A stretch of 64,000 nt of DNA from Sedimentisphaerales bacterium. GTDB taxonomy: Bacteria; Planctomycetota; Phycisphaerae; Sedimentisphaerales; SM23-30. The notes under the pieces were generated by a model. That model was not told the DNA's origin and searched no databases. It worked only from the letters and a program-made list of their open reading frames with translations. Position 1 is the stretch's first letter. Each line of letters begins with the position of its first letter. The translations under genes and the position numbers were made by a program. This document shows positions 43,142-58,922 of this stretch, one piece after another. The DNA is taken from NCBI GenBank assembly GCA_963666285.1, contig OY762711.1. One strand, 5' to 3'.

Positions 43142-43165
43142 TATTTGGGAGAATAAATAAGACTA

Positions 43166-45367
43166 TTAGAGCCATACATCCAGAGCAATTAGCCTGAGCA
43201 GCGAATCTTTACTCCACTTAAACAGGGTTGATTTGCCACAGTCAATATTAACTTTACCGGACATATATGCAATCGCAGATTCATTAAGCTGGCCTGGCTC
43301 GATATCTATGGTAACCTCATATACTACTTCCATTGGTTTAATTTGCCCAATTGAAGAGTCATATTCTGAAAGTACTTCACCACCGACTTTGTTACTTAGG
43401 GCAAGTCTTTCACCATATTGGCCAAAATCCTGTTCGCTATGAACGGAAACAGATTTAACTTTTCCTTTAAATTTATCATCTAAAAAGCCATACAGCATCA
43501 TTTCAGCCTCTGGCTGAAGCCCTTCTTTTAATCCATTTATCCTAGAGAGTGTTTCTTCAGGGACCAGTACCTTGGCTTGCAGGGTCCTGGTATCAGCAAC
43601 CATCATGATGGGAGTGCCCTGGGGCACATAAGCGCCGCGAATTTTATCAATATCCTGATCCAGGGATAAAATTTGACCTTCGAAAGGAGTTTGAATTTTG
43701 AACTTTTCTATTAGCTCATTCTGACTGGCAAGTTGTTTATTTAAAGATACAAGTCTTCTATCCAGCTGGTTAACCAATTCAGCAGCGTTTTTCAGCTTTG
43801 CAATTTCTCTTTCGATTCTGGTTTTCTCAATATTTGCTTTAATAATTTTAACGTCATTTATAATTTCCGGGTTATTTAGTTCCGCAACCAGCGATTTATT
43901 TTTGAGCCATTTACCCTGGGCAATATTTTGGTCCAGAGCGATTATGCCGGACACTTCAGCTCTTATCATTTTGATATTGGTTGGTTCCAGGATAAAATTC
44001 AAAGTAACCTGCTGTTGGAAGGGAATAAACATAACCATTCCTGTCACAGCAAATACGATAGCCAGTAAAGTCAACAGCCTGGTGTTTGTAATACCCAAAG
44101 CTTCTCTTCTTCTAATAACCATATTTCCACCTTTAAAAACCGGCAATAAAACCATGCTTAAAACAGAGAATATCATCAGTGTTTTACCCAGCAGTTCCAG
44201 TTTGACAGAAGCAAACATTTTATACAGCATAAATGTAATTGAATAAGTAAGGAAAAGCCTGTAGCAAAATGAAAAAACAGCATACATAGGAAATAGCATT
44301 TTATACCTATGTTCTTCGGGAGATTCAGTCGGGTTGCCACCAAAAATATATTTAACCCAAAGATTGGTAATTGCATTGGAAGCTCTCTGCCGTAAGTTAG
44401 GAATTTCCATTATATCCATAACAATATAGTAACCGTCAAATTTCATAAGCGGGTTTGCATTCATCATGACAGTTGTAATTGAGCATGTCAGGATAATATT
44501 GAAACACAACGCATGCAGAAACTGAGGTCGGTCGGTTATATACCAGATAATAGTCGCAACAGCGGCGATGAATAATTCTACAAGGATGCCGGCAGCAGTA
44601 GCCATAACTCTGTGCAGTTTATTACGGAAAATCCATGAATCTGTGATATTGCAATAAAGCATTGGCATAAAGACAAGAATCAGAAATCCGATCTCATGAA
44701 CTTCACCGCCATAATGTTTACATGTGAAGCCGTGCCCAAATTCGTGTATAACTTTGGTAATCCAGAAAGCAGCAAATAACAAAGATGCATTCCAAATAGT
44801 AAAGAAATCATCATTAAACATGTTGGCAAAGTCATTCCACCTGTCAACAATAAGAGTTCCCGCTAAAATGAGAATTAAAAGGTAAAATATTAAGAAGGCA
44901 GGAGTCCATATAAAGCTTAATTTGTCAACTATTTTACCTATATGTTTGTCAGGGTCGTAAATCGGTATTTTCAGGTACAGAAAACTTGCGAATTTACCAA
45001 TAAGTTTCTTTTTGCGAATTTTTTTAGCTGAGTTATACAGCAATTCATCTCTGTCCGGATGATTTATGACCAAAATATTCTTAGCCAAGAGAGATCTGAT
45101 AAATTCGGCTATTTCTCTTCCGTCTAAATTCTGGCTGTTAAACTGTTTCTGATGCTTTTCGATCAGCTCACCAAGAGTTATATTATTGGAAAGCTGCTCG
45201 ATAAGAAAATGCTCTTCCCTGTTAAACCTGTAATATCTAAGGCTCATAGGGTCTTTATAAACCCAATAAGGCTGTCCATCATAAATTTGCTGATAGACTT
45301 TCATTTCAGGCCTGATGCGAGGCAGCATTTGAGCATCAGACAGCACTTTTTCATTTAATTCTGACAT
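43166..45367 (-). CDS. Site-2 protease (M50) / HlyD-type membrane-fusion hybrid protein
   Basis: HEFGH, NANPLMKFDGYY, multiple TMs, C-terminal lipoyl/coiled-coil adaptor (IQTPFEGQI). Confidence 0.85.
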   Translation of the reverse strand: MSELNEKVLSDAQMLPRIRPEMKVYQQIYDGQPYWVYKDPMSLRYYRFNREEHFLIEQLSNNITLGELIEKHQKQFNSQNLDGREIAEFIRSLLAKNILVINHPDRDELLYNSAKKIRKKKLIGKFASFLYLKIPIYDPDKHIGKIVDKLSFIWTPAFLIFYLLILILAGTLIVDRWNDFANMFNDDFFTIWNASLLFAAFWITKVIHEFGHGFTCKHYGGEVHEIGFLILVFMPMLYCNITDSWIFRNKLHRVMATAAGILVELFIAAVATIIWYITDRPQFLHALCFNIILTCSITTVMMNANPLMKFDGYYIVMDIMEIPNLRQRASNAITNLWVKYIFGGNPTESPEEHRYKMLFPMYAVFSFCYRLFLTYSITFMLYKMFASVKLELLGKTLMIFSVLSMVLLPVFKGGNMVIRRREALGITNTRLLTLLAIVFAVTGMVMFIPFQQQVTLNFILEPTNIKMIRAEVSGIIALDQNIAQGKWLKNKSLVAELNNPEIINDVKIIKANIEKTRIEREIAKLKNAAELVNQLDRRLVSLNKQLASQNELIEKFKIQTPFEGQILSLDQDIDKIRGAYVPQGTPIMMVADTRTLQAKVLVPEETLSRINGLKEGLQPEAEMMLYGFLDDKFKGKVKSVSVHSEQDFGQYGERLALSNKVGGEVLSEYDSSIGQIKPMEVVYEVTIDIEPGQLNESAIAYMSGKVNIDCGKSTLFKWSKDSLLRLIALDVWL

Positions 45368-45434
45368 ATTTATTACTTATTTTCTGTGCCTGTAAATTCA
45401 ATGTATAGGCATTTTGAAAATTAAAAAACAAAAT

Positions 45435-46430
45435 TTAGAGAAGTTCTACTCTTACTCTCATACCTGGTCTATAGGTGAAAGGATATTTGTTATCCTGGTC
45501 ATCTTTAATTGTCGGATTGTCCATCTGAACTTCAATATAAAATTCGTCAATCGCTTCGATAATAGTAGGTTCAATATAAACAACAGTTGCGCGTTCTGAT
45601 TTGGTAAACCCTTGAACGTAAACAAGTGCCTTCTGACCAAGTTTAATATTTTCAAGAGACGATCTTGGCTGTTTAAATCTTACCCTGAGTTTATCAACTT
45701 CCATCATTGCTATTGCAGGGCTGGTAGCCTGAACAACCTCTCCCTTTCGAATTTGTTTAAGTGTATAGTTTTCCATACTTTTAACACTGGAGAATGGAAC
45801 GATTACACCATCAACCGGGGCAAAAATAGTATAGAATTCCAATGTTTTCTGTAGATTGGCCAACTGATTTTTAAGCAGTCTCATTTCAAGCTCGGCTTTT
45901 TTGACAGCTTCCCTGGCAAGGTCTCTTTGCTGGATAGCTTCTTTTTTTTCCTTGGCAGATCCAACTTTTGAACCACCGATGGTCTGATTAAACAAATCTT
46001 CAACGATTTTCAGGTTATCTTCGGAAAACTCAAGCTTGATCTTTGCTTCATTCATGGTAGTGCTGAGTTCAATTTTGTCTTTGAGCGATTGAATCTCTAG
46101 TTTCACCAGGTCACTATCTAGTTTAATAAGAGGCTGGTTTTTACTGACATAATCTTGCGGCAGGGCAGAAATTTCAGCTACAAGTCCGTTAACCATCGTG
46201 CTAAGAATAATTATCTGTTCTGCCTGGAAGAAATATGGATAACTTTCTTCGTAACTGGTATCAGAGTTTTCCATACCCAGATCGGCAAAAACTATGTCGC
46301 TGGAAGAAGAGTTTTGCGCAAAGCAGCAATTTCCAACTAATAGAGAAAATATTACAATCAAACTGCATAGAGTTTTTAAATATCTTAGAGACATTGTAAA
46401 AAAATTCCTTTCGATAATGTTTATATCCAA
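45435..46430 (-). CDS. HlyD/RND periplasmic adaptor
   Basis: NGLVAEI...coiled coil...IFAPVDGVI...YRPGMRVRV. Confidence 0.82.
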   Translation of the reverse strand: MDINIIERNFFTMSLRYLKTLCSLIVIFSLLVGNCCFAQNSSSSDIVFADLGMENSDTSYEESYPYFFQAEQIIILSTMVNGLVAEISALPQDYVSKNQPLIKLDSDLVKLEIQSLKDKIELSTTMNEAKIKLEFSEDNLKIVEDLFNQTIGGSKVGSAKEKKEAIQQRDLAREAVKKAELEMRLLKNQLANLQKTLEFYTIFAPVDGVIVPFSSVKSMENYTLKQIRKGEVVQATSPAIAMMEVDKLRVRFKQPRSSLENIKLGQKALVYVQGFTKSERATVVYIEPTIIEAIDEFYIEVQMDNPTIKDDQDNKYPFTYRPGMRVRVELL

Positions 46431-46509
46431 ATTTGTCAGAAGAATAGCCTGGTAATATAACTATTCTATTGACTAGTTAATGTTTATGGTCAATAAAAAA
46501 TAAAATTTG

Positions 46510-48495
46510 TTAGAAGGTGTTGACTCTAATGAAGTCAGTAAATTCGTGAGTTAGCAGGTAAAAGATACTCTTTTTACCGCATTCTATAGCAACTTTACCT
46601 TCCATTCCCTGTCGAAGCTCCATTTGGCTGAGCTCTTCGGGCATGGCGACAGTAACACTGATAACATTTCGATATTTCTGCTGGCCGGTAGTTTCAACAT
46701 GTGCTCGTGAAGATAGATTGACCACTTCAGTATCGAAAATTTTATCCGGATAAGCATCCATGATTACTTTAGCCTTCAGGGTTTCACCTTCTTTAAGTTC
46801 ATGCCAGGAATCCAGTAGGCTGCCGGCTTCATCTTCTGGCACATTAACCTGAAATTGCCATATTGGCGTTGTAGGTATAACTTCCAGGACCAGGTCACCA
46901 GCTTTTAGAGGTTTATTAGTAAGTTCCCTGATTTCAGTCTCTCGAGTGGTAATTATTCCACTAAATGGAGCTTTTATTTCATGGTTTTCTAGTATGAACT
47001 CATATTTAGCCTTTTCAGCTTTCATGCCTGCAATCGATAATTCAAGCCTTTTTGCATCTTCACCAAGACCTTTGCTTAGCGCCTGTCTGCGGGCAATGTT
47101 GCTTTCATCAATAGAATTCGCGATTCTTGTTAGTTCTGTTTCTGTGATACGGGTATCAAATCGAGCTAATACTTCTCCGGCTTTGACCATGCGGTCTTCC
47201 GGAATATTTACGGAATCGATAATGCCATCTGTCAAAGCGTAAATATTACGAGCACCTTTGGCTATAAGTTCTGAATTTCCAGTAACTTTTACATTTTTTT
47301 GTATAACATGCGGAAGGGTTACTATAGCTAGTAGTACTATAGCCCATGTGAGTTTTTTATATTTACTTGATCTAAAAGTTTTGTCTCTGAGTGAGGCAAG
47401 CAGTTTCATACAAGCCAGAAGAGGCAACTCATTGTATTTCTGGCAGTTTTTTATAGCGATACCGGCTTCAGCCATAAGCCCTTCAATTTGTTGAAGCTGG
47501 TTATTGCTAAAATCTTCTTCCAGAGCTTTTTCTACAATTAGAGCTCCAACGATATGTCCTTCTGGTGCTTTTATTGGAAAGATGCCTAGCATTACAGAAT
47601 CTACCTGGAGCATATAGAGCCTGGTAGCGGTAATAAGTTCATTATCATCGGTTGTCTCAGCTTTTTTAGCGGCATGGGGATTATCGACAATGAGAGGTTT
47701 ACCATTTTTGCATACTTCTTTGCTTATAGTTTCAAGATCTTTAAGCATAGCGCTTTTAACGGCAACCGATTCCAGGCCGCTGACAGCCTGTACGCGAAAC
47801 TTGCCATTAGAACTGTAAGTTCCTGCAGTACAACGATATACCTCTAGCAGCTCCTGCGAATAGTTTGCAATCGCATAGCCGCATCGCTTAGGATCAAGAC
47901 TGCTGTGCAGAGCACTGACATAATGCCTGAGTCTGTCGGTTTTACTGGTATATTTCTTTTGCGAACGAAGTTCTTCAGCGAGTATAAATTGTCCGGCTTT
48001 TTGACAAAGTCCGGCCACAAAACCAGCGTAACCTCTTACTGCACGAGGATCCACGCCTTCAGGAGAAATCAAAACCAAAATAGCGGCTACATCGCCGGAA
48101 ACCTTAACCGGGACAAATAACAGGGTATGCGGCGAGTTGTTTATTGCCTGCTGGCCGAGTCCTCCGTCATAGAGGTCAGAAGCGCCATGTGCCGGGAGAA
48201 CAATGGTACCACCAGATTCCTTAACTTTTTTTATCGCCATTTCAGCAAGTTTGAATTGGTTTCCGTTTGGTTCTAAACCTGCAATGGACTGGTTAATATG
48301 GCAAACACAAATTAACTGGTCAGTGTTTACTTTCCATACAGAACCGCCGCTGCCAAGAACAGAGACAATCTGTTCCAAAAATGTCCTGAAATATTCAACA
48401 AAGCTGAGTTCGGATTCGCTTATTAGAGCTATTTCCTGGTCTAAAATGGCCAGCCTGTCTTGAAAAGAATTGACCTGCTGCTGTGCTGTGTTCAT
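46510..48495 (-). CDS. GAF-like domain plus HlyD periplasmic adaptor
   Basis: N-terminal GAF-like regions (VQAVSG, VGALIVE), one TM, DGIIDSV...VKAGEVL, IKAPFSGII, LRQGMEGKVAIECG. Confidence 0.82.
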   Translation of the reverse strand: MNTAQQQVNSFQDRLAILDQEIALISESELSFVEYFRTFLEQIVSVLGSGGSVWKVNTDQLICVCHINQSIAGLEPNGNQFKLAEMAIKKVKESGGTIVLPAHGASDLYDGGLGQQAINNSPHTLLFVPVKVSGDVAAILVLISPEGVDPRAVRGYAGFVAGLCQKAGQFILAEELRSQKKYTSKTDRLRHYVSALHSSLDPKRCGYAIANYSQELLEVYRCTAGTYSSNGKFRVQAVSGLESVAVKSAMLKDLETISKEVCKNGKPLIVDNPHAAKKAETTDDNELITATRLYMLQVDSVMLGIFPIKAPEGHIVGALIVEKALEEDFSNNQLQQIEGLMAEAGIAIKNCQKYNELPLLACMKLLASLRDKTFRSSKYKKLTWAIVLLAIVTLPHVIQKNVKVTGNSELIAKGARNIYALTDGIIDSVNIPEDRMVKAGEVLARFDTRITETELTRIANSIDESNIARRQALSKGLGEDAKRLELSIAGMKAEKAKYEFILENHEIKAPFSGIITTRETEIRELTNKPLKAGDLVLEVIPTTPIWQFQVNVPEDEAGSLLDSWHELKEGETLKAKVIMDAYPDKIFDTEVVNLSSRAHVETTGQQKYRNVISVTVAMPEELSQMELRQGMEGKVAIECGKKSIFYLLTHEFTDFIRVNTF

Positions 48496-48853
48496 CTGGT
48501 TCTCCGTAAAAAGCGTTATAAGTGATTTTGTATAAATTACTTATATAGGCCAATCCCTGGCATTATAAGCAAGCGGCGGTCATTTGACTATAAAACAGTC
48601 CAATGACAGATTGACATCATACTCGATTGACATGGTAATGCCAAATCAAAAGCAAAATAGAGCACCACTCAAATCATCATAACTAATAATATTGGTACGA
48701 ACAGTATTTTAATGAAAAATCAATCATGGACAACCAAAAATCCAAATTAAAAGGTATCATGTGAAATATAATTTGTGACACAGCGATAAATTAAAAAGAT
48801 TTTAATGTTTGGACTATTTTGTAAGAATAGGTAACTTTTTTTGAAAATTATGG

Positions 48854-48881
48854 TTGACGTATCAGTACAATTTAGTATAAA
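48854..48881 (+). promoter_or_regulatory. Candidate sigma70 promoter for the long leader and giant gene
   Basis: TTGACG, 16 bp, TATAAA. Confidence 0.5.
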
Positions 48882-48889
48882 TAATACCG

Positions 48890-50058
48890 AGGAAGAGAGT
48901 TTGAGAGTTTAGTGGAAGAGTTTGTCATCATGGCGTTTAGGGTTTTTTGCTATGGAAAAGTAAAACCCTGATGCTGAAAAACCGGTAATTGGCAACGACA
49001 TTCCGTTTTAGTCGGAGATTGCCTTTTGTGACAGACTATCCAAAAGTTGGAAAGTGTATATTGTGATCGCAGCACAGGAAGCGAGCGGCGAATATTATTA
49101 ACAGTATTATTAGCTGGAATTTAATACATGTTCCTGTTAATAATCAGGAGTGACATTACGAGTGTAACTTTGTCCAGAGTGATCAAAGTTACGAAAGGCG
49201 CAATATGGGCAGAGAAAATTTTTCTACTGGCGGTGAAAACTGTTTCATTGTCTTCCAGATGGGATAGCTGTTCTGAGCAAAAAAGCTGATATCAGTATTG
49301 AAAATCACTGTTGATGCATAACGCCAATCAAGTGTTTAATCGCTATTGGTTTATGCGTTTTTTGTCATATATAAGTTTTTTAAAAAAATAATGACAAAAA
49401 ACTGAAGTTGTTATGCCTAATGTAGTGATAATACTGAACAAGAAACTGTGTATAGTGCGCATGGACTATGCATAATGTTCTTTTAAAATTGAATATGAGA
49501 AAAAAGATTTAATTTTGGTTTGGGCTTACGTGTTAGATGTCGGCATGAATTTCGATTAAAGAAATGCAGATAAAAACCGCATTATTGAATATGTTATCGA
49601 GCACGTAGTACCAAAATCAAAATAATATGATACTCTTTCTACAAGCTGCAAATAGGCGAGTATGCTGATTTAGGTCTGGTTATCGAATTAAGTTTTATTT
49701 AATAAGATAAAACAGAAGTTATTGGAGCATCAGACTAAATTGTAATGTATACCGGCAGGAGTGCAGGCCTTGGCCTGTAATGGATGGAACCTGAAATTCA
49801 GGGCAAGTATAATGCGAGAAATTCGCAGAGCTGGTATAAGCGGTTAGACGGGCTAACGCCCGGGCTCCTGTTATTATGAGCCAATTGCAGATGAAATATA
49901 TACGTTATTATTCAGAAATTATGGAATCTAGAGAAACAAATTTATTCGAATGAGCCTTAGTGCGTTGCTGAGGTACAAAATTACGAAACACTCTCTTAAA
50001 ATTAAATGCACAAAAACGATTATAAAAGTTTGTCGCTTTTTATAAAGGAGATTAAATT
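48890..50058 (+). ncRNA. Putative large structured RNA or 5' leader (about 1.15 kb)
   Basis: No ORF in the track; many nested inverted repeats with G-U pairs favouring the + strand (see findings). Confidence 0.55.
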
Positions 50059-53000
50059 ATGGCTAATGGGCTAAGTAAACTTATTAAAAGAGCAAGGAAA
50101 GCCAACGAGAGCAATATTCTCGCAAAGCTTGCTCGCAACAGATTTAGAGTTGAAGAACTCGAAGATCGTATCGCTCCCGCGGCTGGTGCAATTACAAATA
50201 CTGGCGCAGCACTTTCAAATGGTAATTTAACTTATACGCTTGGAAGTGGAGACGATGTGACCCTTGATCTTGGTACAGATCAATATACTATCACTACGTC
50301 AGGCGGTTACACCGGCGAAGGCGTCTCAATTACTTTTGATGCTGTTAGTGGTAGTGCAACAAAAATTACAGAAATTGATTTTGGTAGTTCTGTAGCTCTT
50401 GATGCTGCTACTACTCTGACAATTACAAGTAACAATGGTGCCGTCACAAATACTCTGACCGTTGACTCAGTTGTTGATACAAATGATAATACTGGAACAG
50501 CTAGTATTGTATTTACCAACAACGCTATTATGTCAGCGTTGTCAGTTGGTACTGTGACATTGAGCAATACAGGAATTGCAAACTGGGAATCTGGAGCAGT
50601 AACAGGAATTACAACTGAGACAGTTTCGGGTTCTATGACTGTTGGTGCAGTAGGTGCAACCGGTATAACAGCTAGTTCATCTTTTGCTGGTTCACTGACA
50701 GTTACCGGTTCTCTGGCCGGCCCTGTAACTTCAGCTAATGGCATAGGAGCGGTTACATTAGAGGCAGGAAGTACAGCTGCTGGTGCCATCACTGCAACAT
50801 CTGGTGCTATCACATCTATTACTATTGGTAACGGCGCAGGTGCGAATGATATTACTGTTGCCGGCGATATCGAAGCTGCAGGTTCTATTGGTGCTATAAA
50901 TGGTACAACAGGTGAAGGTACTATTGCAATTTCTGGTGCTATAACAGCAGGTACAAACCTTGCTGCAATTGGTGACTCAAATGATTATATCGATGGTATT
51001 ACAGGTGCTATTACAGCTCAGACTATTGCGGGAATCAATATGTCCGGTAATCTGACTGGCGGTGTAACAGCCAGCGGTGGTGCCGGTACTATTGGTAGCA
51101 TCGATATTGGTTCTGGTACTCTTGGTACTGTCAGTGCTACAGGTACAACAGGTAGTATTGGTGATATCACAGCGGCTGCTATCACTGGTGGTATTACAGC
51201 TACAGATTCAGATACTGGTGGAACTGATAATGCAATTGGTGCAATCATAACTTCAGGTGCAGTTTCTGGAAATATCAGTGGTTACTCAATCGATGATCTG
51301 GCTATTACAGGCGCACTTTCCGGTACAATTACAGTAGTAAATGGTTTTGACGATAATAACGGCCTGGCGATTGGCAGTGTTTCATCTACAGGTGGAATAG
51401 TTGTTACTACAGGTGACCTTGATGGTAGTGATGATATTGCGGTCAGTGGTGACATGGCAGGATCAATAACAGCTACTGCAGGTGCGATTGCTGCTGATGT
51501 TACTATCACAGGTGCTCTAACAGGTAAGATCGAAGCTACCGCGGGCAGTATTAGCGGAGCAATTACAGCCAAGAGCATTTCCGGTGGTACAGAAACAACA
51601 CCTAATATCAAAGCTAATACTTCTGTTGGCAATATCATAGTTACTGATGGCGATTTCGGCGGTTATGCTGTTTCCAGTACTACTATGGGTAACATTGATG
51701 TACGTGATGGTAACCTGTCAGCTACAGTTGTCTCAGGCAGTACAATTGGCACCATTGATGTTACAGATGATGTCGAAAACAATGGCACAACAGAAACTAC
51801 TGATGATGGTAACATCTCTGGTACTATTACCGCAACCGGAACAATTGGCGAGATTGTTATAGAAGATACACTTAGTGGTACAATTACTGCTTCAGGTTAT
51901 TCAGGAGCCATTTCTACAGGTGCTGATGAAGCTGTAGACGATCCATCGGCACTGCCGTCCGGCGGTATTTCAAGTACTGGTAGTATCACAGCAACAACAG
52001 GTAACTTTGCAGAATTGATCAGAATTTATGATGGTGGTATGGCTGGTACTATTACAGCTACTGACGGTGATATTCTTGGCGGTATTCAGATATTAGACAC
52101 AGTTACATCAAGTACAACTAATGGTGTAGATAATGACGCTGTTCTTTCTGGTACTGTTTCAGCCGGTGATGAAATTAAAACAGGTGCAATTACAATATCT
52201 GATGGTATTTCTTCAACCGGTCAGATTTCAGCTACAACAGACTTGGCATCTGATATTACTGTAACAGAAGGCGGCATGGCCGGTACAATTACTTCTGCTA
52301 CACTGGTTTCTGGTGATATTACTATCTCAGACGGCGGAATGTCAGGTACTATTTCAGCTACCGGAACTTCAGCTGACATCTCAGGTCAGATTCAGATACT
52401 GGATAGCGACGCTGATGATGACGGAACCTTCTCTGGAACCATTTCTGCCCTTGGTACGATCAGTGGTGCCGGTATTAGCGTATCAGATGGTATTACCTCA
52501 ACCGGTGCTGTATCTGCAGTTGATGATATTTCAGCTACAGTTACAGTAACTGACGGCGGTATGGCCGGTACTATTTCAGCTACTACCCTGATTTCTGGTG
52601 AATTGATTGTGACAGACGGCGGTATGAGCGGTACCCTAACATCAGCATCACTTGCCGGTTGTGATATAACAATTGGTGATGGCGCGACAGCTGCTGACGA
52701 TACAGATGATACTCTTAGCGGTACAATTCAGGCTACCAGCAGCAATGGTGTTAATGTTATAGATTCTCCTATCAAGATTGATGGCGGTATTACCGCAGAT
52801 GGTAAGATTATTTCTGGTGATAACATCTCAAGTGCAATCACAATTGGTACAGGCAGCACAACAGCTGATATGGCCGGTAAGATTGAAGCCAGCGGTGATG
52901 TTACCAGTGCTATAGTAATTGATGACGATTTGTCTGGTACAATCCAGGCTCTTACCGGTGCTTTTGGTACTGGCGATAATGCATTCTTAACAGTTGGCGG

Positions 53001-56000
53001 TGATATTACTTCTACAGCTACTCTGTCAGCGAAAACAGATCTTGCAGGTAGAATCGCTGTTACCGGCACTGTAAATATCCCTCTGACATTTGAAGGTGAT
53101 GTAACATCTACAATCACTGCTCAGTCATTTACAGGTGCTATCACAGTTGGTGGTGACCTGGGTGCTAATGTAAGTGCTATCTCTGGCACTACTGGTGTAA
53201 TTGGTAACATTTCTGCAGAAACAATAGGTAAAAACGGCAATGTTACTATCCAGGCTGATGACGGCATTGGTGCTATCACAACTACTGGTGCAATAGGTAC
53301 AACAGGTGCTAATACAGTAACAATTACTGCAGATCAGGACGGAGATAATACTGGTGATTTGACATCAGTAACTTCAGGCGGCTTAATGAGAGTTGCTATT
53401 ACTGGTGAAAACATTGGTGCTATCACATCAGGCGGAACTGCTGCCGATGATATTGAAGGTACAATTAGAGCTGCTAGTGATATCGACGGCGTTGATGCCG
53501 GTTTTGGTACAGTTATGGCTACAGTATCTGCCGGTGCCGCAACATCAGGTTCTCCATTAGCATGGGTTGTAGCTGAAGGTGTTACATACGCAGTATGGGC
53601 ATTGGATCCGACAACCGGCGCTGAAATGGCCGGAGTAACTGCAAATGTAGAATTTGCTCTTGATACAGCCGGCGACGGTGTTGACAATGCTGGTGATCAG
53701 CCAACAATTACAATTACCGGTATAACCGGCACAACAAGTGCTGCTCCAATTGATCTGAAAGTTGTTACAACAGCAGACAATGGTACAGCTACTCCAACAC
53801 TGACAGATGCAGATCTTGATATCGATGCGATTGGCAGTGATGTAATAGTTGCCTTATCTTCTGCTACACCTATATATATCAATGACCTTGATATTGAAGG
53901 CCAATATACAACATCTGGTTCAGACCCAGACATAATTGTTGCCGGTGCAACAACTGTTGAAGGTGGTATTGGTGGTACATTTACTCTGAATTTAGCTAAT
54001 CAGACCAGCTATACATTCAAGAGTATTGCTGCAAACACTACATTGACATTTACTGGTACTGGTACAGTTGATCCTACAATTACAATACTGGAAGGTATTG
54101 ACGATACAGGCGGAAATGTAACACTGACAATTGCGGGCAGTAATGTTGCCGCGTTAAATGTTGGTGATGCATCTCAGAACAAGACTGCTGATGTTGGTGC
54201 TGCAGGTGGTAACCTGACAACTATCAATGCCGGAACCAATACTATTGGTGAAATCGTCGTTGCAGGTAACCTGTATGGTACAGTTTCTGCTGCTTCTATC
54301 GGTAACGTTATCGTTGACGGTAACCTTGGCGATACAGTAGCTTCACAACTGCACGCAACTGCCGGAAGCATTGGTAATGTAAATGTCAAGGGCAGTATTG
54401 ACCTTACCTTGATCAAAGCAGAAAATGCTGCTGATCAGTCAACTGCAACTATAGGCTACATCGCAGCCGGTGCAAACCTTGCTGATGGTGCTAGCATGAC
54501 AATCAGTGCCGGTGGTGCTATCAGCGGTATCCATGCCGGCGGTTATATCGGTGATAATGGTGCCGGACATCTGGTTACAATTACTACTCTAAATGGTGGT
54601 ATAGCTGAGATTATTGCTGACGGTAATGATGGTGTCGACGATGCGATGAACTTAGACGTTGATGTTGCTGGCGATATTGATCTGATCAGTGCTAACAGTG
54701 ACGGCAATGCACCTATCGAAGGTGTTAAGATTCAGTCTCGTACAGGTAATATTGGTACTATCCAGACTGTTGACTCTGCTATTGATATCGATATCAAGGC
54801 TCTTGCCGGAGATATTGATAATATCCTGGTTAACGATGGTCCGACCGATGCCGACCTGGTTGCATCTGCTGGTATTGCCAATAACCTGACAATTCTGGCT
54901 GGTGGCGATATCGATTCTATCGTTGCCAATGCTATTGGAGCATTGACAACAATCACAGCCGAAGCAGCAACAGCTAATTCTCCTGTAACAACATGGCTGA
55001 TCGGTACAACACTTTATAGCCTGGAAGCCGAAGGTGGTACAGATAATACTACATACGGTTATAACTGGGTTAACGGTGTTCTTGATCTGACAATCAATAA
55101 TGCAGCTGATGCAGATGCAACTGATGACACATTGATTGAAATCAGTTTGACAACTGAGTATTCAGTAGGTGTTACAGACGCTGATAACGAAATGTTGGAT
55201 GATACTCAGTTTGATCTTGCAACTCTGAACTTTACTGCTGGCAGTATAGCAGATGACCTGGCTTCTCTGACTGTTGAAGGTGAGATTACCGGTCTGGTTC
55301 AGATTGGTTCTGTAGCAACTCTGCTTGTTGAAGGTAACGTTGCCCAGCCAATCCAGATAGTTGACAATGCTGCTAATCCGATTGAAGCTGTAGCTATGGC
55401 AACTGCTATGGGTGTTGATGACCCGGATGCAACAGCATTGGCCCAGATGTTCTCTGGTACTGCTGTTGCCTTTGAAGCTCCTGCTGTTGGCACAACATAC
55501 CAGGTACCAGTTACAGGTGCAAATGGTGATGTCAGCTTTGCAATCTATGATGCAGAATCAAGTGCATTTATAACTCCTGTTGTTCTGAGCCTGGGTAACG
55601 ATGGTGCAGGTAATGACGCAGTAGGTTTCTTTGATGTAACTGTTCTTGAAGGTGATGCATTGGATATTGATGCCGCTCGTTGGGCAGCAGGTGCTATCAC
55701 AATCGAAGGTGACCTTGATTATATTATCTTTGGTACTAATGTTGACGCAGTAACTATTACTGGTTCTATCCTTGAAGGTGCCGGTATTAACGCTTATAAC
55801 ATTGACGCTATCAATATTGGTGTAAATAACTCATTTACTGGTGGCGATCTGAATGGTTTCATTAGAGTTGTTATGCCTGATGATGAACAGTTTGACTTGG
55901 AACTTGATGGTGACTTCGATGCGGCTGACACAGCTCTTATGGGAATGTGCGGCGCTATCACAGTATTTGGTTCTGTTGGAGCAACCGGTGAAATCTACGT

Positions 56001-58845
56001 TGAAGGCGACCTGACCAGCTTAACAGTTGGTGATGCTGACTTCGATTATGGTGAGCTCGATGCTATAGGAACCGATGAAACCAATGAAGATAACTTCAGT
56101 GACGATGGTTCTCTGGTAGGAACATTTGCCGGTAACCTTGCAGTATTAGGTGACAGTGGTAATATTACCAGCATGTCAACTCTTGGCGGTACCATCATGG
56201 TTGGTGGCGACTGTGGAGACCTGCTATCAACTTATGACGATGTTACTGCTAACATTTTCATCGGTGGTACAAACGGTGCTGACGATGTAGCAATTACCGG
56301 TGATGCAATCTCCGGCAACATCGTTGTTGGTGCTATCGGTGGTATCGATACTTTGACTCTGACTGTAAGAGAAGGAGTTGAAAACAACGATCAGGAAACT
56401 TACACAGTATCTTCTTCAGCCGGTCATGCCATAATGGTTAATATAGCTGCTGGAAACGTAACTGGTTCAGCTCTGACTGTTGATTCAATTACATCGTTCG
56501 GTCCTGCTACAGCTCTGAACGCTACATCAGCTAACTTTATGGATAACGTAACTGTTGATAATATCTTCTTCCTGGCTAATTCAGGTGCTGACTGTGAAAT
56601 AGACGTTGAAGGTACTATCGGCGATATCGTTGGTGCGGACGGACTACCTCAGTTCCAGTCATCAGCAACTATTATGGCAGGTATTTCAGCTAATTATGAT
56701 CTGTTGAAATATGATGCTGTAACTGCTTTGGATGCCGCTAACGATGATAATACCGATACTAATCTTGATCTTGAATTTACTACTAACCTGCTGGGTATTG
56801 ACAATATTGTCGCTACAGGTGACATCACAGTTACAAGCACAGCAGATGGTCAGTTGATTCTTGACAATACTGATTTCGGTAATGTTGTTTCACTTGACGG
56901 TGCAGTTACTATAGACCTGGATGCAGAAAATATCGGTCATGTATTTGCTTACGGCAATGTAGAAAATGGTAACCTGCTTGCTCAGGGTACTGTTGCTGTT
57001 GGTGATGCTACCGCTTTGACAGCATCTCTAACCACTTACGGCCTGACACTGCCAGCTAACTTTACTGGTGGTATCATGAGTGCTTCCGGTTATGTAGGTA
57101 ACGGTGCTCTGGTTATTACAGGCATGGACCTTAGTGCTCCAGAATATGCAACTGAAGGTTACGTAGTTGGTGCAGTAACGGCTCTTGTTGGTGATGTTGA
57201 TGCAGATATCAATGCGACCGGCGGTGACTTCGGCGGACTGATTATTCCTCTTGGTGACTATGAAGGTGCGTTAGCTGCTTCTGAAAACATTGACCTGATT
57301 CTAATACCGGGTTATGATGCAGCAGATGGTACCTACACTAACGGTGAGACAACAGCTGTAGCTGTTTCTCTGACAGTTGCTGAGGCTGCCGGTGACCTGG
57401 ATGCAGAGACCACATTGATTGCTGGTGAAACAGTAATTTCTAACGGTCAGAGCTATGATGATGGTAACCTGGAAGTTTCAACAGATGACTCAGGTGTTCT
57501 TGCTTATGTAAATAATGCTGGAAATGCTTTGACTGTTATTAACGGTCTGGCTGCAAATAACACAATTAGTGTTGTTGGTAACCTGACAACTCTTACAGTT
57601 GACGGTACCTGGGCTGGAACAGTTGATATGATGAGTGATTCTGCTGGTGCATTGGGTCAGACATCTGAAGCCACTGGTTATACAGTTGGTACAGTAAATG
57701 CTCTTGGTGATATTGATGCATCAACAGCTCAGTTGTTGGCGGTAGATTTCACTACCTTCAATCAGCCTGCTATGTACTCACTGATCAATGATAGTGCAAC
57801 TGACAATTTCGTAATTGGCGGTCAGCTAAATTCAGATAATAATTCAGTACAGTTTACTAACACAGCTGGTGAAACTCAGACTGTTGTATTGATTGCCGGT
57901 AAGGCAGTTGCAATGGACTATGAAATGTACTTTGGTAAGATCACTGAAGCTACTTTGACTGGTCGCGGTGGTGTTTCAATTGTAAGTACAACTGAAAATG
58001 TCGTTGGTGCTACAGCTAATGAAACTGTTAAGAATGCTAAGGCTGTTCTTAAGAATGCAGCTCGCTACGGTGTAAGTGCTGACGATGGTACAGCTAACCT
58101 TGGTGACATTTCAGTTCATGGCACAGATAAGGTTAATATCAATGGCATGGTTGTTGATGGTAATCTGACATCATTGAACAGCGGTCTTGCTGATGTTAAA
58201 GACCTGTATGTAAATGGTTCAGTTAGTGCATTGACTATTGGTGATGATATCAATAATGCCTTCATTAGTGGTCAGGTAACTGATTTGGTTGTTAAAGACT
58301 CTCTGAAGGATCTAACCATGCTTGGTACTGGTACAGCAAGCATTACAGCCAATAAGATTAACAATCTGTATGTAGATGGTGCTATCAATGATCTACAGGC
58401 TTCTGTTGCAAGTAAGGTCGTAATTGATGGTAATGTTAACCTTGACTTTACAGCTGTAAAAGCTTCAGATGTAGTTATTGACGGTAATATTACTGACTTC
58501 TCAGTTGCTAATATTAACGGACTTATTATCGATGGCAATGCTACTAATTTCCATGCTGCTAACATCAAGAATGCTTCAGTTAGTGAAGTTGGTACTCTCA
58601 CAATGCAGAGTAATGGTTCTATCATTAACTCTACATTTGCGGAAGGTGCTGCTGGTAACGTTGATACTACTAAGAGGATCACTTACATGGCTGCTGCTAA
58701 TGGTACAGGAGCTGGTGGTGCAGTTGGTGATTTGGTACTTAAGAAGGTTGGAGTCAGAAACAATCCTGATTATATCAAGGTTCGTAATTCTGCTCTTGAT
58801 CCTGCCCTGTTTGCTAACAGTGCTCCAGTTGTATACATGGACTAA
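50059..58845 (+). CDS. Giant (2928 aa) LEPR-XLL/Planctomycete-extracellular-leader surface protein, S-layer- or adhesin-like
   Basis: N-terminal RNRFRVEELEDRIAPA; G/T/A/I/D-rich beta-solenoid-like repeats; AAGGAG RBS; strong terminator. Confidence 0.8.
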   Translation: MANGLSKLIKRARKANESNILAKLARNRFRVEELEDRIAPAAGAITNTGAALSNGNLTYTLGSGDDVTLDLGTDQYTITTSGGYTGEGVSITFDAVSGSATKITEIDFGSSVALDAATTLTITSNNGAVTNTLTVDSVVDTNDNTGTASIVFTNNAIMSALSVGTVTLSNTGIANWESGAVTGITTETVSGSMTVGAVGATGITASSSFAGSLTVTGSLAGPVTSANGIGAVTLEAGSTAAGAITATSGAITSITIGNGAGANDITVAGDIEAAGSIGAINGTTGEGTIAISGAITAGTNLAAIGDSNDYIDGITGAITAQTIAGINMSGNLTGGVTASGGAGTIGSIDIGSGTLGTVSATGTTGSIGDITAAAITGGITATDSDTGGTDNAIGAIITSGAVSGNISGYSIDDLAITGALSGTITVVNGFDDNNGLAIGSVSSTGGIVVTTGDLDGSDDIAVSGDMAGSITATAGAIAADVTITGALTGKIEATAGSISGAITAKSISGGTETTPNIKANTSVGNIIVTDGDFGGYAVSSTTMGNIDVRDGNLSATVVSGSTIGTIDVTDDVENNGTTETTDDGNISGTITATGTIGEIVIEDTLSGTITASGYSGAISTGADEAVDDPSALPSGGISSTGSITATTGNFAELIRIYDGGMAGTITATDGDILGGIQILDTVTSSTTNGVDNDAVLSGTVSAGDEIKTGAITISDGISSTGQISATTDLASDITVTEGGMAGTITSATLVSGDITISDGGMSGTISATGTSADISGQIQILDSDADDDGTFSGTISALGTISGAGISVSDGITSTGAVSAVDDISATVTVTDGGMAGTISATTLISGELIVTDGGMSGTLTSASLAGCDITIGDGATAADDTDDTLSGTIQATSSNGVNVIDSPIKIDGGITADGKIISGDNISSAITIGTGSTTADMAGKIEASGDVTSAIVIDDDLSGTIQALTGAFGTGDNAFLTVGGDITSTATLSAKTDLAGRIAVTGTVNIPLTFEGDVTSTITAQSFTGAITVGGDLGANVSAISGTTGVIGNISAETIGKNGNVTIQADDGIGAITTTGAIGTTGANTVTITADQDGDNTGDLTSVTSGGLMRVAITGENIGAITSGGTAADDIEGTIRAASDIDGVDAGFGTVMATVSAGAATSGSPLAWVVAEGVTYAVWALDPTTGAEMAGVTANVEFALDTAGDGVDNAGDQPTITITGITGTTSAAPIDLKVVTTADNGTATPTLTDADLDIDAIGSDVIVALSSATPIYINDLDIEGQYTTSGSDPDIIVAGATTVEGGIGGTFTLNLANQTSYTFKSIAANTTLTFTGTGTVDPTITILEGIDDTGGNVTLTIAGSNVAALNVGDASQNKTADVGAAGGNLTTINAGTNTIGEIVVAGNLYGTVSAASIGNVIVDGNLGDTVASQLHATAGSIGNVNVKGSIDLTLIKAENAADQSTATIGYIAAGANLADGASMTISAGGAISGIHAGGYIGDNGAGHLVTITTLNGGIAEIIADGNDGVDDAMNLDVDVAGDIDLISANSDGNAPIEGVKIQSRTGNIGTIQTVDSAIDIDIKALAGDIDNILVNDGPTDADLVASAGIANNLTILAGGDIDSIVANAIGALTTITAEAATANSPVTTWLIGTTLYSLEAEGGTDNTTYGYNWVNGVLDLTINNAADADATDDTLIEISLTTEYSVGVTDADNEMLDDTQFDLATLNFTAGSIADDLASLTVEGEITGLVQIGSVATLLVEGNVAQPIQIVDNAANPIEAVAMATAMGVDDPDATALAQMFSGTAVAFEAPAVGTTYQVPVTGANGDVSFAIYDAESSAFITPVVLSLGNDGAGNDAVGFFDVTVLEGDALDIDAARWAAGAITIEGDLDYIIFGTNVDAVTITGSILEGAGINAYNIDAINIGVNNSFTGGDLNGFIRVVMPDDEQFDLELDGDFDAADTALMGMCGAITVFGSVGATGEIYVEGDLTSLTVGDADFDYGELDAIGTDETNEDNFSDDGSLVGTFAGNLAVLGDSGNITSMSTLGGTIMVGGDCGDLLSTYDDVTANIFIGGTNGADDVAITGDAISGNIVVGAIGGIDTLTLTVREGVENNDQETYTVSSSAGHAIMVNIAAGNVTGSALTVDSITSFGPATALNATSANFMDNVTVDNIFFLANSGADCEIDVEGTIGDIVGADGLPQFQSSATIMAGISANYDLLKYDAVTALDAANDDNTDTNLDLEFTTNLLGIDNIVATGDITVTSTADGQLILDNTDFGNVVSLDGAVTIDLDAENIGHVFAYGNVENGNLLAQGTVAVGDATALTASLTTYGLTLPANFTGGIMSASGYVGNGALVITGMDLSAPEYATEGYVVGAVTALVGDVDADINATGGDFGGLIIPLGDYEGALAASENIDLILIPGYDAADGTYTNGETTAVAVSLTVAEAAGDLDAETTLIAGETVISNGQSYDDGNLEVSTDDSGVLAYVNNAGNALTVINGLAANNTISVVGNLTTLTVDGTWAGTVDMMSDSAGALGQTSEATGYTVGTVNALGDIDASTAQLLAVDFTTFNQPAMYSLINDSATDNFVIGGQLNSDNNSVQFTNTAGETQTVVLIAGKAVAMDYEMYFGKITEATLTGRGGVSIVSTTENVVGATANETVKNAKAVLKNAARYGVSADDGTANLGDISVHGTDKVNINGMVVDGNLTSLNSGLADVKDLYVNGSVSALTIGDDINNAFISGQVTDLVVKDSLKDLTMLGTGTASITANKINNLYVDGAINDLQASVASKVVIDGNVNLDFTAVKASDVVIDGNITDFSVANINGLIIDGNATNFHAANIKNASVSEVGTLTMQSNGSIINSTFAEGAAGNVDTTKRITYMAAANGTGAGGAVGDLVLKKVGVRNNPDYIKVRNSALDPALFANSAPVVYMD

Positions 58846-58888: not shown

Positions 58889-58922
58889 AAAAGGTCTCCG
58901 GCTTTGCCGGGGGCCTTTTTTT
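58889..58922 (+). terminator. Intrinsic terminator after the giant gene
   Basis: AAAAGGTCTCCGGC-TTT-GCCGGGGGCCTTTTTTT. Confidence 0.88.

What the first reader, a model, noticed from the sequence alone, without database searches (positions are those of the whole stretch)
48890..50058. About 1.15 kb of ORF-free, densely base-paired sequence upstream of the giant gene: possible new large structured RNA
Seen after a candidate promoter (48854-48881): AGTTTGTCA/TGACAGACT (48919/49029) enclosing AGGGTTTT/AAAACCCT and GGCAA/TTGCC; ATTATTAACAG/CTGTTAATAAT (49094/49134); GTAACTTTG/CAAAGTTAC (49164/49184); GTTTTTTGTCAT/ATGACAAAAAAC (49357/49391); TGTGTATAGT/ACTATGCATA (49447/49465). There is also a four-way junction, TATACCGGC/GCTGGTATA (49748/49830), holding TGCAGGCC/GGCCTGTA, CCTGA/TCAGG and TGCGA/TCGCA; then CGGGC/GCCCG (49849) and a hairpin abutting the RBS (50020-50045). 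Several mismatches are G-U on the + strand. A boxA-like TGTTCTTTTAAAA is at about 49476. I do not recognise it as a known RNA class. Inference: an exceptionally long leader for mRNA stability or antitermination of a 9-kb gene, or an independent large ncRNA.
Basis: partly seen in the sequence, partly recalled or inferred. Interest (0 to 1): 0.8.

Follow-up and report, generated by a model that had tools for sequence, protein, structure and literature searches.

The report
Long boxA-bearing leader of giant gene
The gene-free 1.2 kb in front of a giant surface-protein gene of a planctomycete is most likely a very long untranslated mRNA leader that carries the same "keep transcribing" signal as the cell's ribosomal RNA genes, rather than a new giant folded RNA.

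Summary
The sequence features are real. All 12 quoted helices sit at the stated coordinates, no + strand ORF exceeds 53 aa, and the fold is more stable than shuffles (z -5.0). The minus strand folds almost as well (z -4.7). Seven other long intergenic regions of this genome reach z -0.4 to -3.7. Only 2 of the 12 helices are kept in the two congeners that share the region.

Conserved among the three Sedimentisphaerales species are:
- a strong promoter 1.0-1.2 kb upstream of the gene;
- two copies of an operator-like motif;
- a hairpin followed by a boxA/boxC-like block;
- a 115-nt domain with one compensatory change;
- a hairpin and the ribosome-binding site.

The boxA block matches the genome's own 23S rRNA leader at 20 of 23 bases. 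Genome-wide only three sites match that well. No shuffled leader did (0 of 5000).

Best reading (0.55): a long 5' leader carrying an rRNA-type Nus/boxA antitermination module for a 10-kb transcript. No Rfam family matched and no RNA data exist. The same module also heads a PEP-CTERM operon and ends a 31-copy repeat, which is unexplained. This scan had noted boxA-headed long leaders before, in phages.

The parts
46510..48495 (-). Divergent neighbour: GAF + HlyD-type membrane-fusion protein. It is the first gene of a leftward HlyD-HlyD-HlyD-ABC ATPase cluster. Context only.
   Evidence: Pfam HlyD_3 and GAF; ABC_tran at 42458-43141. The same divergent gene lies upstream in G001 and G003, 67-68% identity by tblastn.
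48854..48881 (+). Promoter P1: TTGACG, 16-nt spacer, TATAAA, with an A/T-rich upstream stretch. The inferred transcription start is near 48888-48892.
   Evidence: Sequence. Conserved as TTGACN-16 nt-TATAAR in G003 (-1100) and G001 (-1013), inside otherwise unalignable DNA. It shares TATGGTTGACRTAT with a 16S rRNA upstream promoter of the same genome (read by eye). The -10 element lacks the usual final T, so the scan tool did not list it.
48890..50058 (+). Inferred untranslated leader, about 1.17 kb. The congener leaders are about 1.07 kb (G003) and 0.98 kb (G001).
   Evidence: No + strand ORF over 53 aa. No sigma-70-like + strand site between 49500 and 50058. No copy elsewhere in the genome. 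No Rfam match.
49098..49112 (+). Operator-like motif, site 1 (TTAACAGTATTATTA). This is a weaker copy of TTATCAGTATTGAAA.
   Evidence: It aligns with ATATTAGTACTGAAA (G003) and TTATCAGTGTTGAAA (G001) (read by eye). It lies 180-191 nt upstream of site 2 in all three species.
49290..49301 (+). Operator-like motif, site 2 (TATCAGTATTGA).
   Evidence: Conserved in all three leaders. The near-palindromic form TTATCAGTAYTGATAA recurs at about 30 non-coding sites in the genome. With one mismatch allowed there are 142 hits, 30 of them non-coding; of 9 exact hits, 5 are non-coding.
49427..49432 (+). Conserved GATAAT (within GATAATAC): a possible -10 element of an internal promoter P2.
   Evidence: Invariant in the three species. 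It lies 48-50 nt upstream of boxA, the same spacing as the 16S promoter -10 to the rrn boxA (51 nt) (positions counted by hand). No -35 or extended -10 element was found.
   Evidence: A hairpin ends 2-12 nt before boxA in G000, G003 and G001, with different sequences, and also in the 16S and 23S leaders.
49477..49499 (+). boxA plus boxC-like block: GTTCTTTTAAAATTGAATATGAG.
   Evidence: 20 of 23 bases match the genome's own 23S leader 23-mer. Genome-wide only 3 sites match at 3 or fewer mismatches, and 0 of 5000 shuffled leaders do. It matches the G003 23S leader at 21 of 23 (counted by hand). Conserved as GTTCATTAACAAGTGAATA (G003) and GCTCATTTAAAAGTAAATA (G001).
49756..49870 (+). Conserved 115-nt 3' domain. 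The closing helix is CAGGAGT/GCTCCTG. It holds the hairpin GCAGGC-CTTG-GCCTGT (49763-49778), a variable middle with an invariant CAGG, and the hairpin CGGGC-TAAC-GCCCG (49849-49862).
   Evidence: 18 pairs, with 54 of 54 cells paired. There is one compensatory change (G-C to A-U in G001) and two wobble-compatible changes. G-U pairs occur on the + strand only. Covariance model R1 finds one copy each in G000, G003 and G001, and only weak hits (E 0.05-0.08) in 2 of the other 22 family genomes. An alternative long helix between the two conserved arms is also possible.
49955..49973 (+). Conserved hairpin CCTTAG-TGCGTTG-CTGAGG.
   Evidence: Seven pairs are kept in the three species through U-A to U-G and U-G to C-G changes. 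These are compatible only with + strand RNA.
50020..50050 (+). A/U hairpin abutting the ribosome-binding site (AAGGAG at 50045-50050). CTTTTT can pair either with the upstream TTATAAAAG or with the Shine-Dalgarno sequence.
   Evidence: TTTTTATAAAGGAG is invariant in the three species. RNAalifold pairs it with the Shine-Dalgarno sequence. The upstream partner was read by eye.
50059..58845 (+). Giant gene, 2928 aa. The protein is repetitive and rich in T, G, A, I, D and S, with no Pfam or NCBIfam domain. Its N-terminus MANGLSKLIKRARK...VEELEDRIAP is conserved across the family.
   Evidence: Orthologues were found in 8 of 24 other family genomes.
58889..58919 (+). Intrinsic terminator closing the transcription unit (14-bp stem followed by a T-run).

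Best explanation
The region is the untranslated 5' leader of a single-gene transcript of about 10 kb. The transcript runs from promoter P1 (48854-48881) to the terminator at 58889-58919 and encodes a giant secreted or surface protein of a Sedimentisphaerales bacterium (Planctomycetota).

About 590 nt into the leader, the RNA presents a hairpin followed by a boxA/boxC-like sequence almost identical to the one in the cell's own 23S rRNA leader. I infer that NusB-NusE (S10) bind this boxA and, together with NusA, NusG and the other factors of the ribosomal antitermination complex, convert RNA polymerase into a termination-resistant form. The polymerase can then cross the long, ribosome-free leader and the 8.8-kb repetitive gene without Rho-dependent or pause-dependent loss.

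Downstream, a conserved 115-nt domain, a conserved hairpin and an A/U hairpin at the Shine-Dalgarno sequence probably set mRNA stability and/or translation initiation. One possibility is that the CUCCUG arm of the domain pairs alternately with CAGGAG or with the ribosome-binding site. Two operator-like DNA motifs between P1 and boxA probably bind a transcription factor.

Shown: the sequence features, their conservation in three species, and the match to the rrn leaders. Inferred: the transcription start, Nus binding, the antitermination effect, and the role of the 3' domain.
For: (1) P1 is conserved in the two congeners at -1100 and -1013, within DNA that otherwise does not align. No sigma-70-like + strand site lies in the last 560 nt. 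No + strand ORF exceeds 53 aa. No strong terminator lies before the gene, and a strong one follows it.

(2) The boxA block at 49477-49499 matches the genome's own 23S leader 23-mer with 3 mismatches. Only 3 sites in 6.35 Mb (both strands) match that well: the 23S leader itself, this site, and one other. None of 5000 shuffled leaders matches.

(3) The block is conserved in G003 and G001. It fits the published search pattern GYTCTTTAANA (PMC5725501, passages) at 10, 10 and 9 of 11 positions (counted by hand). Positions 4 (C) and 6 (T) are kept; these are the positions that paper mutated to destroy function.

(4) A hairpin lies directly upstream of boxA in all three leaders and in both rrn leaders.

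(5) NusB and Rho are encoded in the genome.

(6) The G-U pairs and wobble-compatible substitutions in the conserved helices work only on the + strand. The + strand folds more stably than the - strand in all three species.

(7) A second boxA-like leader (26 of 29 identical) heads a PEP-CTERM surface-protein operon and is conserved in G001 and G003.

(8) Six of 20 orthologous loci in other genera carry a sense-strand boxA within 2 mismatches in the 1200 nt upstream. The expectation is 1.56, and 1 of 400 shuffles reaches 6.
Against: No RNA data exist, so neither the start site nor read-through is shown.

The boxA differs from the rrn 12-mer at 2-4 positions in each species, always including position 8, and at position 5 in G003 and G001. 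Binding is therefore unproven.

boxA lies 590 nt from P1, whereas it is about 25-45 nt from the rrn promoters.

The same hairpin-boxA-TGAATAT module ends a repeat family with 31 hits, and that family shows no orientation bias toward downstream genes: 14 same, 17 opposite. The motif may therefore have another or a wider role.

Several of the boxA-like hits in other genera lie upstream of their likely promoter at -206 to -271.

The covariation support for the 3' domain is one compensatory pair in three sequences, which is not significant: 161 of 500 shuffles do as well.

The G>C skew of the leader is ordinary for this genome's intergenic DNA, at the 68th percentile.
Confidence: 0.55

Rival explanations
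1. There are two transcription units. P1 makes a separate non-coding RNA of about 0.5 kb (48890 to about 49420). The giant gene is transcribed from an internal rrn-style promoter P2 (-10 element GATAAT at 49427-49432), which places the hairpin and boxA at about +10 to +60, as in rRNA operons. The leader would then be about 620 nt.
For: GATAATAC is invariant in the three species. It lies 48-50 nt upstream of boxA, matching the 51 nt between the 16S promoter -10 and the rrn boxA. The 5' half carries its own conserved pieces: a GAGTAnAAGAG-like 5' end and two operator-like motifs.
Against: No -35 or extended -10 element accompanies GATAAT (read). No terminator-like site lies between P1 and 49420 apart from a weak one at 49001-49017. 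The 5' half has little conserved structure: helices H1-H4 form only 2-7 of their 5-12 pairs in the congeners.
Confidence: 0.2
2. The region is mainly DNA-level control DNA. It would be a long regulatory stretch with transcription-factor operators (the TATCAGTATTGA sites, the palindromes), shared with the divergent HlyD/ABC operon. The real start of the giant gene would be close to it. The boxA resemblance would be incidental, or a protein-binding DNA site.
For: The excess of inverted repeats is nearly strand-symmetric, z -5.0 against -4.7. The TATCAGTATTGA motif is a near-palindrome found at about 30 non-coding sites. Orthologues in other genera have a conserved promoter-like block only 206-271 nt upstream, in 13 of 20 loci.
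Against: No promoter-like + strand site lies in the last 560 nt, and nothing resembles the other genera's promoter block (no match at 9 or fewer mismatches). The conserved helices use G-U pairs that exist only in + strand RNA. The boxA match to the rrn leader has a very low chance expectation.
Confidence: 0.12
3. The leader is largely neutral filler. It would be DNA inserted between an ancestral promoter and the gene in this genus, for example a decayed mobile element related to the 31-copy repeat that ends in the same boxA-like module. Only the short conserved blocks would have a function.
For: Other genera appear to have about 200-nt leaders. Most of the 1.17 kb does not align between congeners. 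The boxA module is shared with the end of a dispersed repeat.
Against: A profile of the repeat matches the leader only over the 39-nt boxA module (E 0.15). blastn finds no other copy of the leader in the genome. Leader length (0.98-1.17 kb) and the order and spacing of the blocks are kept in three species.
Confidence: 0.1

Closest known systems
rRNA operon leader antitermination signal (boxB hairpin, boxA, boxC; the NusB-NusE-NusA-NusG-SuhB-S4 complex)
   Same: A hairpin followed by a boxA that matches the organism's own rrn boxA, then a conserved downstream block shared with the 23S leader, on the sense strand downstream of a strong promoter. The known function is protection of long untranslated transcripts from Rho (abstracts of PMC4807359 and PMC6614801, search listings).
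   Different: Here it precedes a protein-coding gene. It lies about 590 nt from the conserved promoter instead of a few tens of nt. Position 8 of boxA is T or A instead of the rrn G. No leader-trailer processing helix encloses the gene: the best leader/trailer complement is 18 nt at 83%, which is chance level among the 42 pairs found.
boxA elements in mRNA 5' UTRs (suhB, rpsJ and others; Baniulyte et al. 2017, PMC5725501, passages read)
   Same: A boxA-like sequence in the 5' UTR of a protein-coding gene, conserved among relatives.
   Different: Those sites lie within 50 nt of the start codon in gamma-proteobacteria, and for suhB they repress translation and promote Rho termination. This one is 582 nt upstream in a planctomycete, in front of a 2928-aa gene. 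A read-through role therefore seems more likely than repression.
boxA upstream of CRISPR arrays (Stringer et al., known to me only as cited in PMC7862264, passage)
   Same: A boxA placed ahead of a long stretch of untranslated RNA, proposed to block Rho-dependent termination.
   Different: The protected RNA here is a 0.6-kb untranslated stretch followed by a translated giant ORF, not a CRISPR array.
Other processive antitermination leaders for long surface or polysaccharide operons (RfaH/ops, LoaP, EAR RNA). Recalled from memory; only the listing of PMC12691694 was seen.
   Same: A leader-encoded signal that makes RNA polymerase processive over long genes for cell-surface products.
   Different: No ops-like or EAR-like element was searched for or found. 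The Rfam library, which holds described RNA families, gave no match. The signal here is of the rrn type.
Long stabilising 5' UTRs of S-layer and surface-protein genes (recalled from memory, no paper read)
   Same: A strong promoter far upstream of an abundant surface-protein gene, with 5' hairpins.
   Different: Those leaders are, as far as I recall, tens to a few hundred nt long. This one is about 1 kb and contains a boxA.

Membership tests
rrn-type boxA antitermination signal | Sequence match to the organism's own rRNA-leader boxA | tested here: met
   The 12-mer core matches the own rrn boxA GTTCTTTGACAA at 10 of 12 in G000 and G003, and at 8 of 12 in G001 (9 of 12 if Y is allowed at position 2). 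The 23-mer matches the own 23S leader at 20 of 23. Only 3 genome-wide sites match at 3 or fewer mismatches, and 0 of 5000 shuffles do.
rrn-type boxA antitermination signal | Fit to the published boxA search pattern GYTCTTTAANA, with C4 and T6 kept | tested here: inconclusive
   10, 10 and 9 of 11 positions fit in G000, G003 and G001. C4 and T6 are kept in all three, but position 8 or 5 deviates (hand count against the pattern quoted in PMC5725501). The pattern was derived from gamma-proteobacteria.
rrn-type boxA antitermination signal | On the transcribed strand, downstream of a promoter, preceded by a boxB-like hairpin | tested here: met
   It is on the sense strand, 590 nt downstream of the conserved P1. 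A hairpin ends 2-12 nt upstream in all three species and in both rrn leaders. Transcription itself is not shown.
rrn-type boxA antitermination signal | Conservation in related genomes | tested here: met
   It is one of the few alignable blocks in three congeners.
rrn-type boxA antitermination signal | NusB-NusE binding and a termination-resistant polymerase | not testable with these tools
   NusB and Rho genes are present.
Any described RNA family (Rfam 15) | Covariance-model score at or above the gathering threshold | tested here: not met
   The best hits in 48300-50300 are snoRNA models at 14.6-23.8 bits, against gathering thresholds of 39-81 bits. The whole window holds only one tRNA.
Large structured non-coding RNA (OLE, GOLLD, ROOL-like class) | A secondary structure conserved with covariation over most of its length | tested here: not met
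   10 of the 12 proposed helices form only 1-7 of their 5-12 pairs in the congeners. Only the GCAGGC hairpin and CGGGC/GCCCG are kept. The alignment of the diverged parts is unreliable.
Large structured non-coding RNA (OLE, GOLLD, ROOL-like class) | A transcription unit of its own, with its own 3' end before the next gene | tested here: inconclusive
   Only weak terminator-like sites were found on the + strand, at 49001-49017 and 49850-49867. There are no RNA data.
Riboswitch-like cis-regulatory domain (49756-49870) | Conserved helices supported by compensatory changes, with an invariant core | tested here: inconclusive
   54 of 54 cells pair. There is 1 compensatory and 2 wobble changes, and 161 of 500 shuffles do as well. 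Only three sequences exist.

The most novel reading that the evidence does not exclude
The hairpin-boxA-TGAATAT module may mark a clade-specific, non-ribosomal antitermination regulon in anaerobic Planctomycetota. It would serve giant and PEP-CTERM surface-protein genes and a family of about 31 non-coding elements. The 115-nt domain at 49756-49870 would be a new riboswitch-like switch that alternately exposes or hides the ribosome-binding site of the giant gene.
Probability: 0.2. Interest if true: 0.75.

Novelty: new variant of a known kind. Interest (0 to 1): 0.5.

Why it matters
Giant repetitive genes and kilobase-long untranslated leaders should be prone to premature termination. How bacteria outside the model phyla protect such transcripts is little studied.

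If this reading holds, a planctomycete has co-opted its rRNA antitermination signal for surface-protein mRNAs. That would extend Nus/boxA control beyond rRNA, the small set of proteobacterial mRNAs, and CRISPR arrays. It would also give a concrete, mutable 23-nt element to test.

The finding also flags a genus-restricted 115-nt RNA domain and a dispersed repeat that carries the same module. For the scan, it shows that the 'dense base-pairing' of this region is largely ordinary for this genome's intergenic DNA, and that only a few blocks are under selection.

Tried and rejected
RNA evidence: the look-up of sequencing runs listed no RNA holder. Four runs were laid as contigs. One (X3) shows chimeric contigs joined at GATC sites, which looks like a proximity-ligation library. 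None informs on expression. Two low-depth strain variants fall in G000-specific helices. C>T at 48968 keeps a G-U pair, and T>C at 49365 breaks a pair. This is too thin to use (hand mapping).

More homologues: the metagenome scan gave 11 orthologous loci, none with a recognisable leader by nhmmer. nhmmer over 17 genome loci found the leader only in the two congeners. The fourth genus member, G002 (72% complete), matched neither the protein nor the model.

Other negative results:
- Leader-trailer helix around the gene: none above chance.
- C-poor composition as an anti-Rho adaptation: the G>C skew is general for transcribed-direction intergenic DNA here, so I dropped it as evidence.
- Coding potential: the 31-53-aa ORFs are not conserved. 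A 9-10-codon ORF starting at the conserved ATG near 49921 is present in all three species, but its peptides are unrelated (read by eye).
- Membership in the 31-copy repeat: only the boxA module matches.
- Homology of P1 with the promoter block of other genera: no match at 9 or fewer mismatches. Only the TTGA-N17-GTATAAAT layout is alike.
- Literature on long leaders or giant genes in Planctomycetes: one search, nothing relevant.
Full report
WHAT IS THERE. The window is G000:C1:5984001-6048000 of a 6.35-Mb genome. Record titles of the orthologous loci place it in Sedimentisphaerales (Phycisphaerae, Planctomycetota). The finding lies in a 1563-nt gap (48496-50058). On one side is a leftward gene for a GAF + HlyD-type membrane-fusion protein (46510-48495). 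This is the first gene of a HlyD-HlyD-HlyD-ABC cluster. On the other side is a rightward 2928-aa gene (50059-58845) that has no Pfam or NCBIfam domain. That protein is repetitive and rich in T, G, A, I, D and S. Its N-terminus, MANGLSKLIKRARK...VEELEDRIAP, is conserved in the family. A strong intrinsic terminator follows the gene at 58889-58919.

CHECK OF THE OBSERVATION. The largest + strand ORF in 48890-50058 is 53 aa.
- The + strand folds at -316.3 kcal/mol, against -274.3 +/- 8.4 for 20 dinucleotide shuffles (z -5.0).
- The - strand gives z -4.7. The surplus is therefore mostly strand-symmetric inverted repeats. The lower absolute energy of the + strand comes from its G+T-rich composition (G 22%, C 13.6%).
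- Measured against this genome, the region is only moderately unusual. Its 200-nt windows average z -1.50, against -1.11 (sd 1.55) for 90 random intergenic windows.
- Seven other intergenic regions of at least 1250 nt, each cut to the same 1169 nt, give z -0.44 to -3.68.
- No Rfam family comes near its threshold, and the region has no other copy in the genome.

COMPARATIVE EVIDENCE. The N-terminus of the giant protein finds orthologues in 8 of 24 other genomes of the family, and in none of 276 genomes of the other families of the order that were sampled. Only the two complete congeners, G003 and G001, share the upstream region. In both, the same GAF/HlyD gene lies divergently upstream. Most of the roughly 1 kb does not align, but a fixed series of blocks does:
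- (a) Promoter P1, TTGACN-16 nt-TATAAR with an A/T-rich upstream stretch, at -1205 (G000), -1100 (G003) and -1013 (G001).
- (b) Two copies of TTATCAGTATTGAAA-like motifs, 180-191 nt apart.
- (c) GATAATAC.
- (e) CAGGAGTGCAGGC...GCCTGT and GACGGGCT...GCCCGGGCTCCTG.
- (f) The hairpin CCTYAGTGYGTTGCTGRGG.
- (g) TTTTTATAAAGGAG plus the start codon.

The other ten form 1-7 of their 5-12 pairs there, which is about chance. The caveat is that the diverged parts align poorly. The congener leaders fold with z -2.1 (G003) and -6.5 (G001) on the + strand, and -1.25 and -2.8 on the - strand.

THE boxA MODULE. I located the genome's 16S and 23S genes, which are unlinked, and those of the congeners. Then I read their leaders.
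- All carry GTTCTTTGACAA, or GTTCTTTGAAAA in the G003 23S leader, behind a hairpin.
- The 23S leaders continue with xTGAATATGAGG or TTTAATATGAGG.
- The giant-gene leader reads GTTCTTTTAAAATTGAATATGAG at 49477-49499. That is 20 of 23 identical to the genome's own 23S leader and 21 of 23 to that of G003.
- Using the own 23S 23-mer as the query, the whole genome (both strands) has three sites with 3 or fewer mismatches: the 23S leader, this site, and C1:3246261. None of 5000 dinucleotide shuffles of the leader has one.
- The congener versions are GTTCATTAACAAGTGAATA and GCTCATTTAAAAGTAAATA. In all three leaders, as in both rrn leaders, a hairpin ends 2-12 nt upstream.
- NusB and Rho are encoded.

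Against the published gamma-proteobacterial pattern GYTCTTTAANA (PMC5725501, passages), the three leaders fit at 10, 10 and 9 of 11 positions and keep C4 and T6. That paper shows that boxA sites occur in mRNA 5' UTRs, and that Nus factors can either prevent or promote Rho action depending on context. A passage in PMC7862264 cites work proposing that boxA ahead of CRISPR arrays blocks Rho.

THE 3' DOMAIN. The segment 49756-49870 can form a closing helix CAGGAGU/GCUCCUG that encloses two invariant GC-rich hairpins and a variable middle.
- All 54 cells of 18 pairs are paired in three sequences. There is one compensatory change (G-C to A-U in G001) and two wobble-compatible changes.
- With three sequences this is not significant: 161 of 500 shuffles do as well.
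- RNAalifold prefers an alternative in which the two conserved 24-nt arms pair with each other. I cannot decide between the two folds.
- A covariance model of the domain finds exactly one copy in each of G000, G003 and G001, and nothing convincing in the other 22 family genomes.
- The G-U pairs here, and in the hairpin at 49955-49973, exist only in + strand RNA.
- CUCCUG could also pair with the AAGGAG ribosome-binding site. That switch idea is inference only.

WIDER CONTEXT. In other genera the orthologue is preceded by a DUF3467 gene 650-850 nt upstream, and by a conserved promoter-like block at -206 to -271 in 13 of 20 loci. Their leaders are therefore probably about 200 nt. In G000 the DUF3467 gene is elsewhere, at C1:5655696-5656037. 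The kilobase leader with its boxA thus looks like a genus-level elaboration. Six of 20 loci of other genera have a sense-strand boxA within 2 mismatches in the 1200 nt upstream, against 1.56 expected. For that count I left out the two congeners and two doubtful orthologues (L036, L037). Some of those hits lie upstream of the likely promoter, so this point is weak.

A second site in G000 (C1:75642) reads ATGTTCTTTTACAAATGAATAGAGAAAA, 26 of 29 identical to the leader block. It lies 485 nt upstream of an array of small proteins, one of which has a PEP-CTERM end. It is conserved in G001 and G003.

AN UNEXPLAINED COMPLICATION. A degenerate pattern that I built from these sites has 9 genome hits, against 1 for its reversed control. 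Several hits are the ends of a dispersed repeat: blastn with a 380-nt query gave 31 hits at 84-100% identity, the query copy included, at E <= 1e-50. Each copy ends in a hairpin (GACGAAAACTTCGTC), a boxA-like GCTCAATAAAAA or GCTCTTTGAAAA, and CTGAATAT. The copies show no orientation bias toward the next gene, 14 same and 17 opposite. A profile of the repeat matches the leader only over the boxA module, at E 0.15. So the module is used more widely than 'leader of a gene'. This lowers my confidence that its role here is simply antitermination for the downstream ORF.

VERDICT. The features are real. The best-supported reading is a very long mRNA leader with an rRNA-type antitermination module and a small conserved 3' regulatory domain. 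It is not a new kilobase-sized structured RNA. The transcription start, Nus binding and the antitermination effect are inferred. No RNA data were available. Earlier notes of this scan describe boxA-headed long leaders in phages. They are leads, not support.

Noticed in passing
G000:C1, 31 blast hits, e.g. 4947436-4947815 (+), 2617209-2617484 (-), 3960212-3960484 (-). Not in the window.: A dispersed, C-rich repeat. A 380-nt query gave 31 blastn hits at 84-100% identity, the query copy included. The copies lie in gaps that run about 0.8-1.3 kb further upstream, and account for some of this genome's long, skewed intergenic gaps. Each copy ends with a hairpin, a boxA-like sequence and CTGAATAT. 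No Rfam match. No orientation bias toward neighbouring genes (14 same, 17 opposite).
   Followed up: partly
G000:C1:75642-75670 (locus L069:1642-1670): A second boxA-like leader element, 26 of 29 identical to the one in the window. It lies downstream of a TTGACT-17-TATATT promoter and 485 nt upstream of an array of small proteins, one of which has a PEP-CTERM end. It is conserved in G001 and G003.
   Followed up: partly
window 49290-49301 and 49098-49112; about 30 non-coding sites genome-wide; also about 480 nt upstream of one 16S gene: A near-palindromic motif TTATCAGTAYTGATAA, probably the operator of an unidentified transcription factor. It occurs twice per leader at conserved spacing, and also overlaps promoter-like sites upstream of orthologues in other genera (L021, L022, L035).
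   Followed up: partly
Loci L021-L035, about 650-1250 nt upstream of the giant-gene orthologues; G000:C1:5655696-5656037: A highly conserved DUF3467 protein of about 115 aa is encoded just upstream of the giant gene in other genera, but is unlinked in this genus.
   Followed up: partly
G000:C1:1183643-1185184 and 1451086-1452627 (16S); 3847989-3850847 (23S): The 16S and 23S rRNA genes are unlinked. Each has its own promoter, hairpin and boxA leader.
   Followed up: partly
window 42458-48495 (- strand): Three consecutive HlyD-type membrane-fusion genes (one with a GAF domain) plus an ABC ATPase lie divergent from the giant gene. The GAF/HlyD gene lies in the same divergent position in G001 and G003. 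This may be the export system for the giant protein.
   Followed up: no
window 49921-49953: A 9-10-codon ORF starts at a conserved ATG in all three species (context AAATYATGG). The peptides are unrelated and there is no Shine-Dalgarno sequence. Read by eye from the alignment.
   Followed up: no
window 50040-50184, run X1: A low-depth contig in the same sample carries a relative's gene start, about 89% identical, with a similar leader end. A further member of the genus therefore probably exists in that sample.
   Followed up: no
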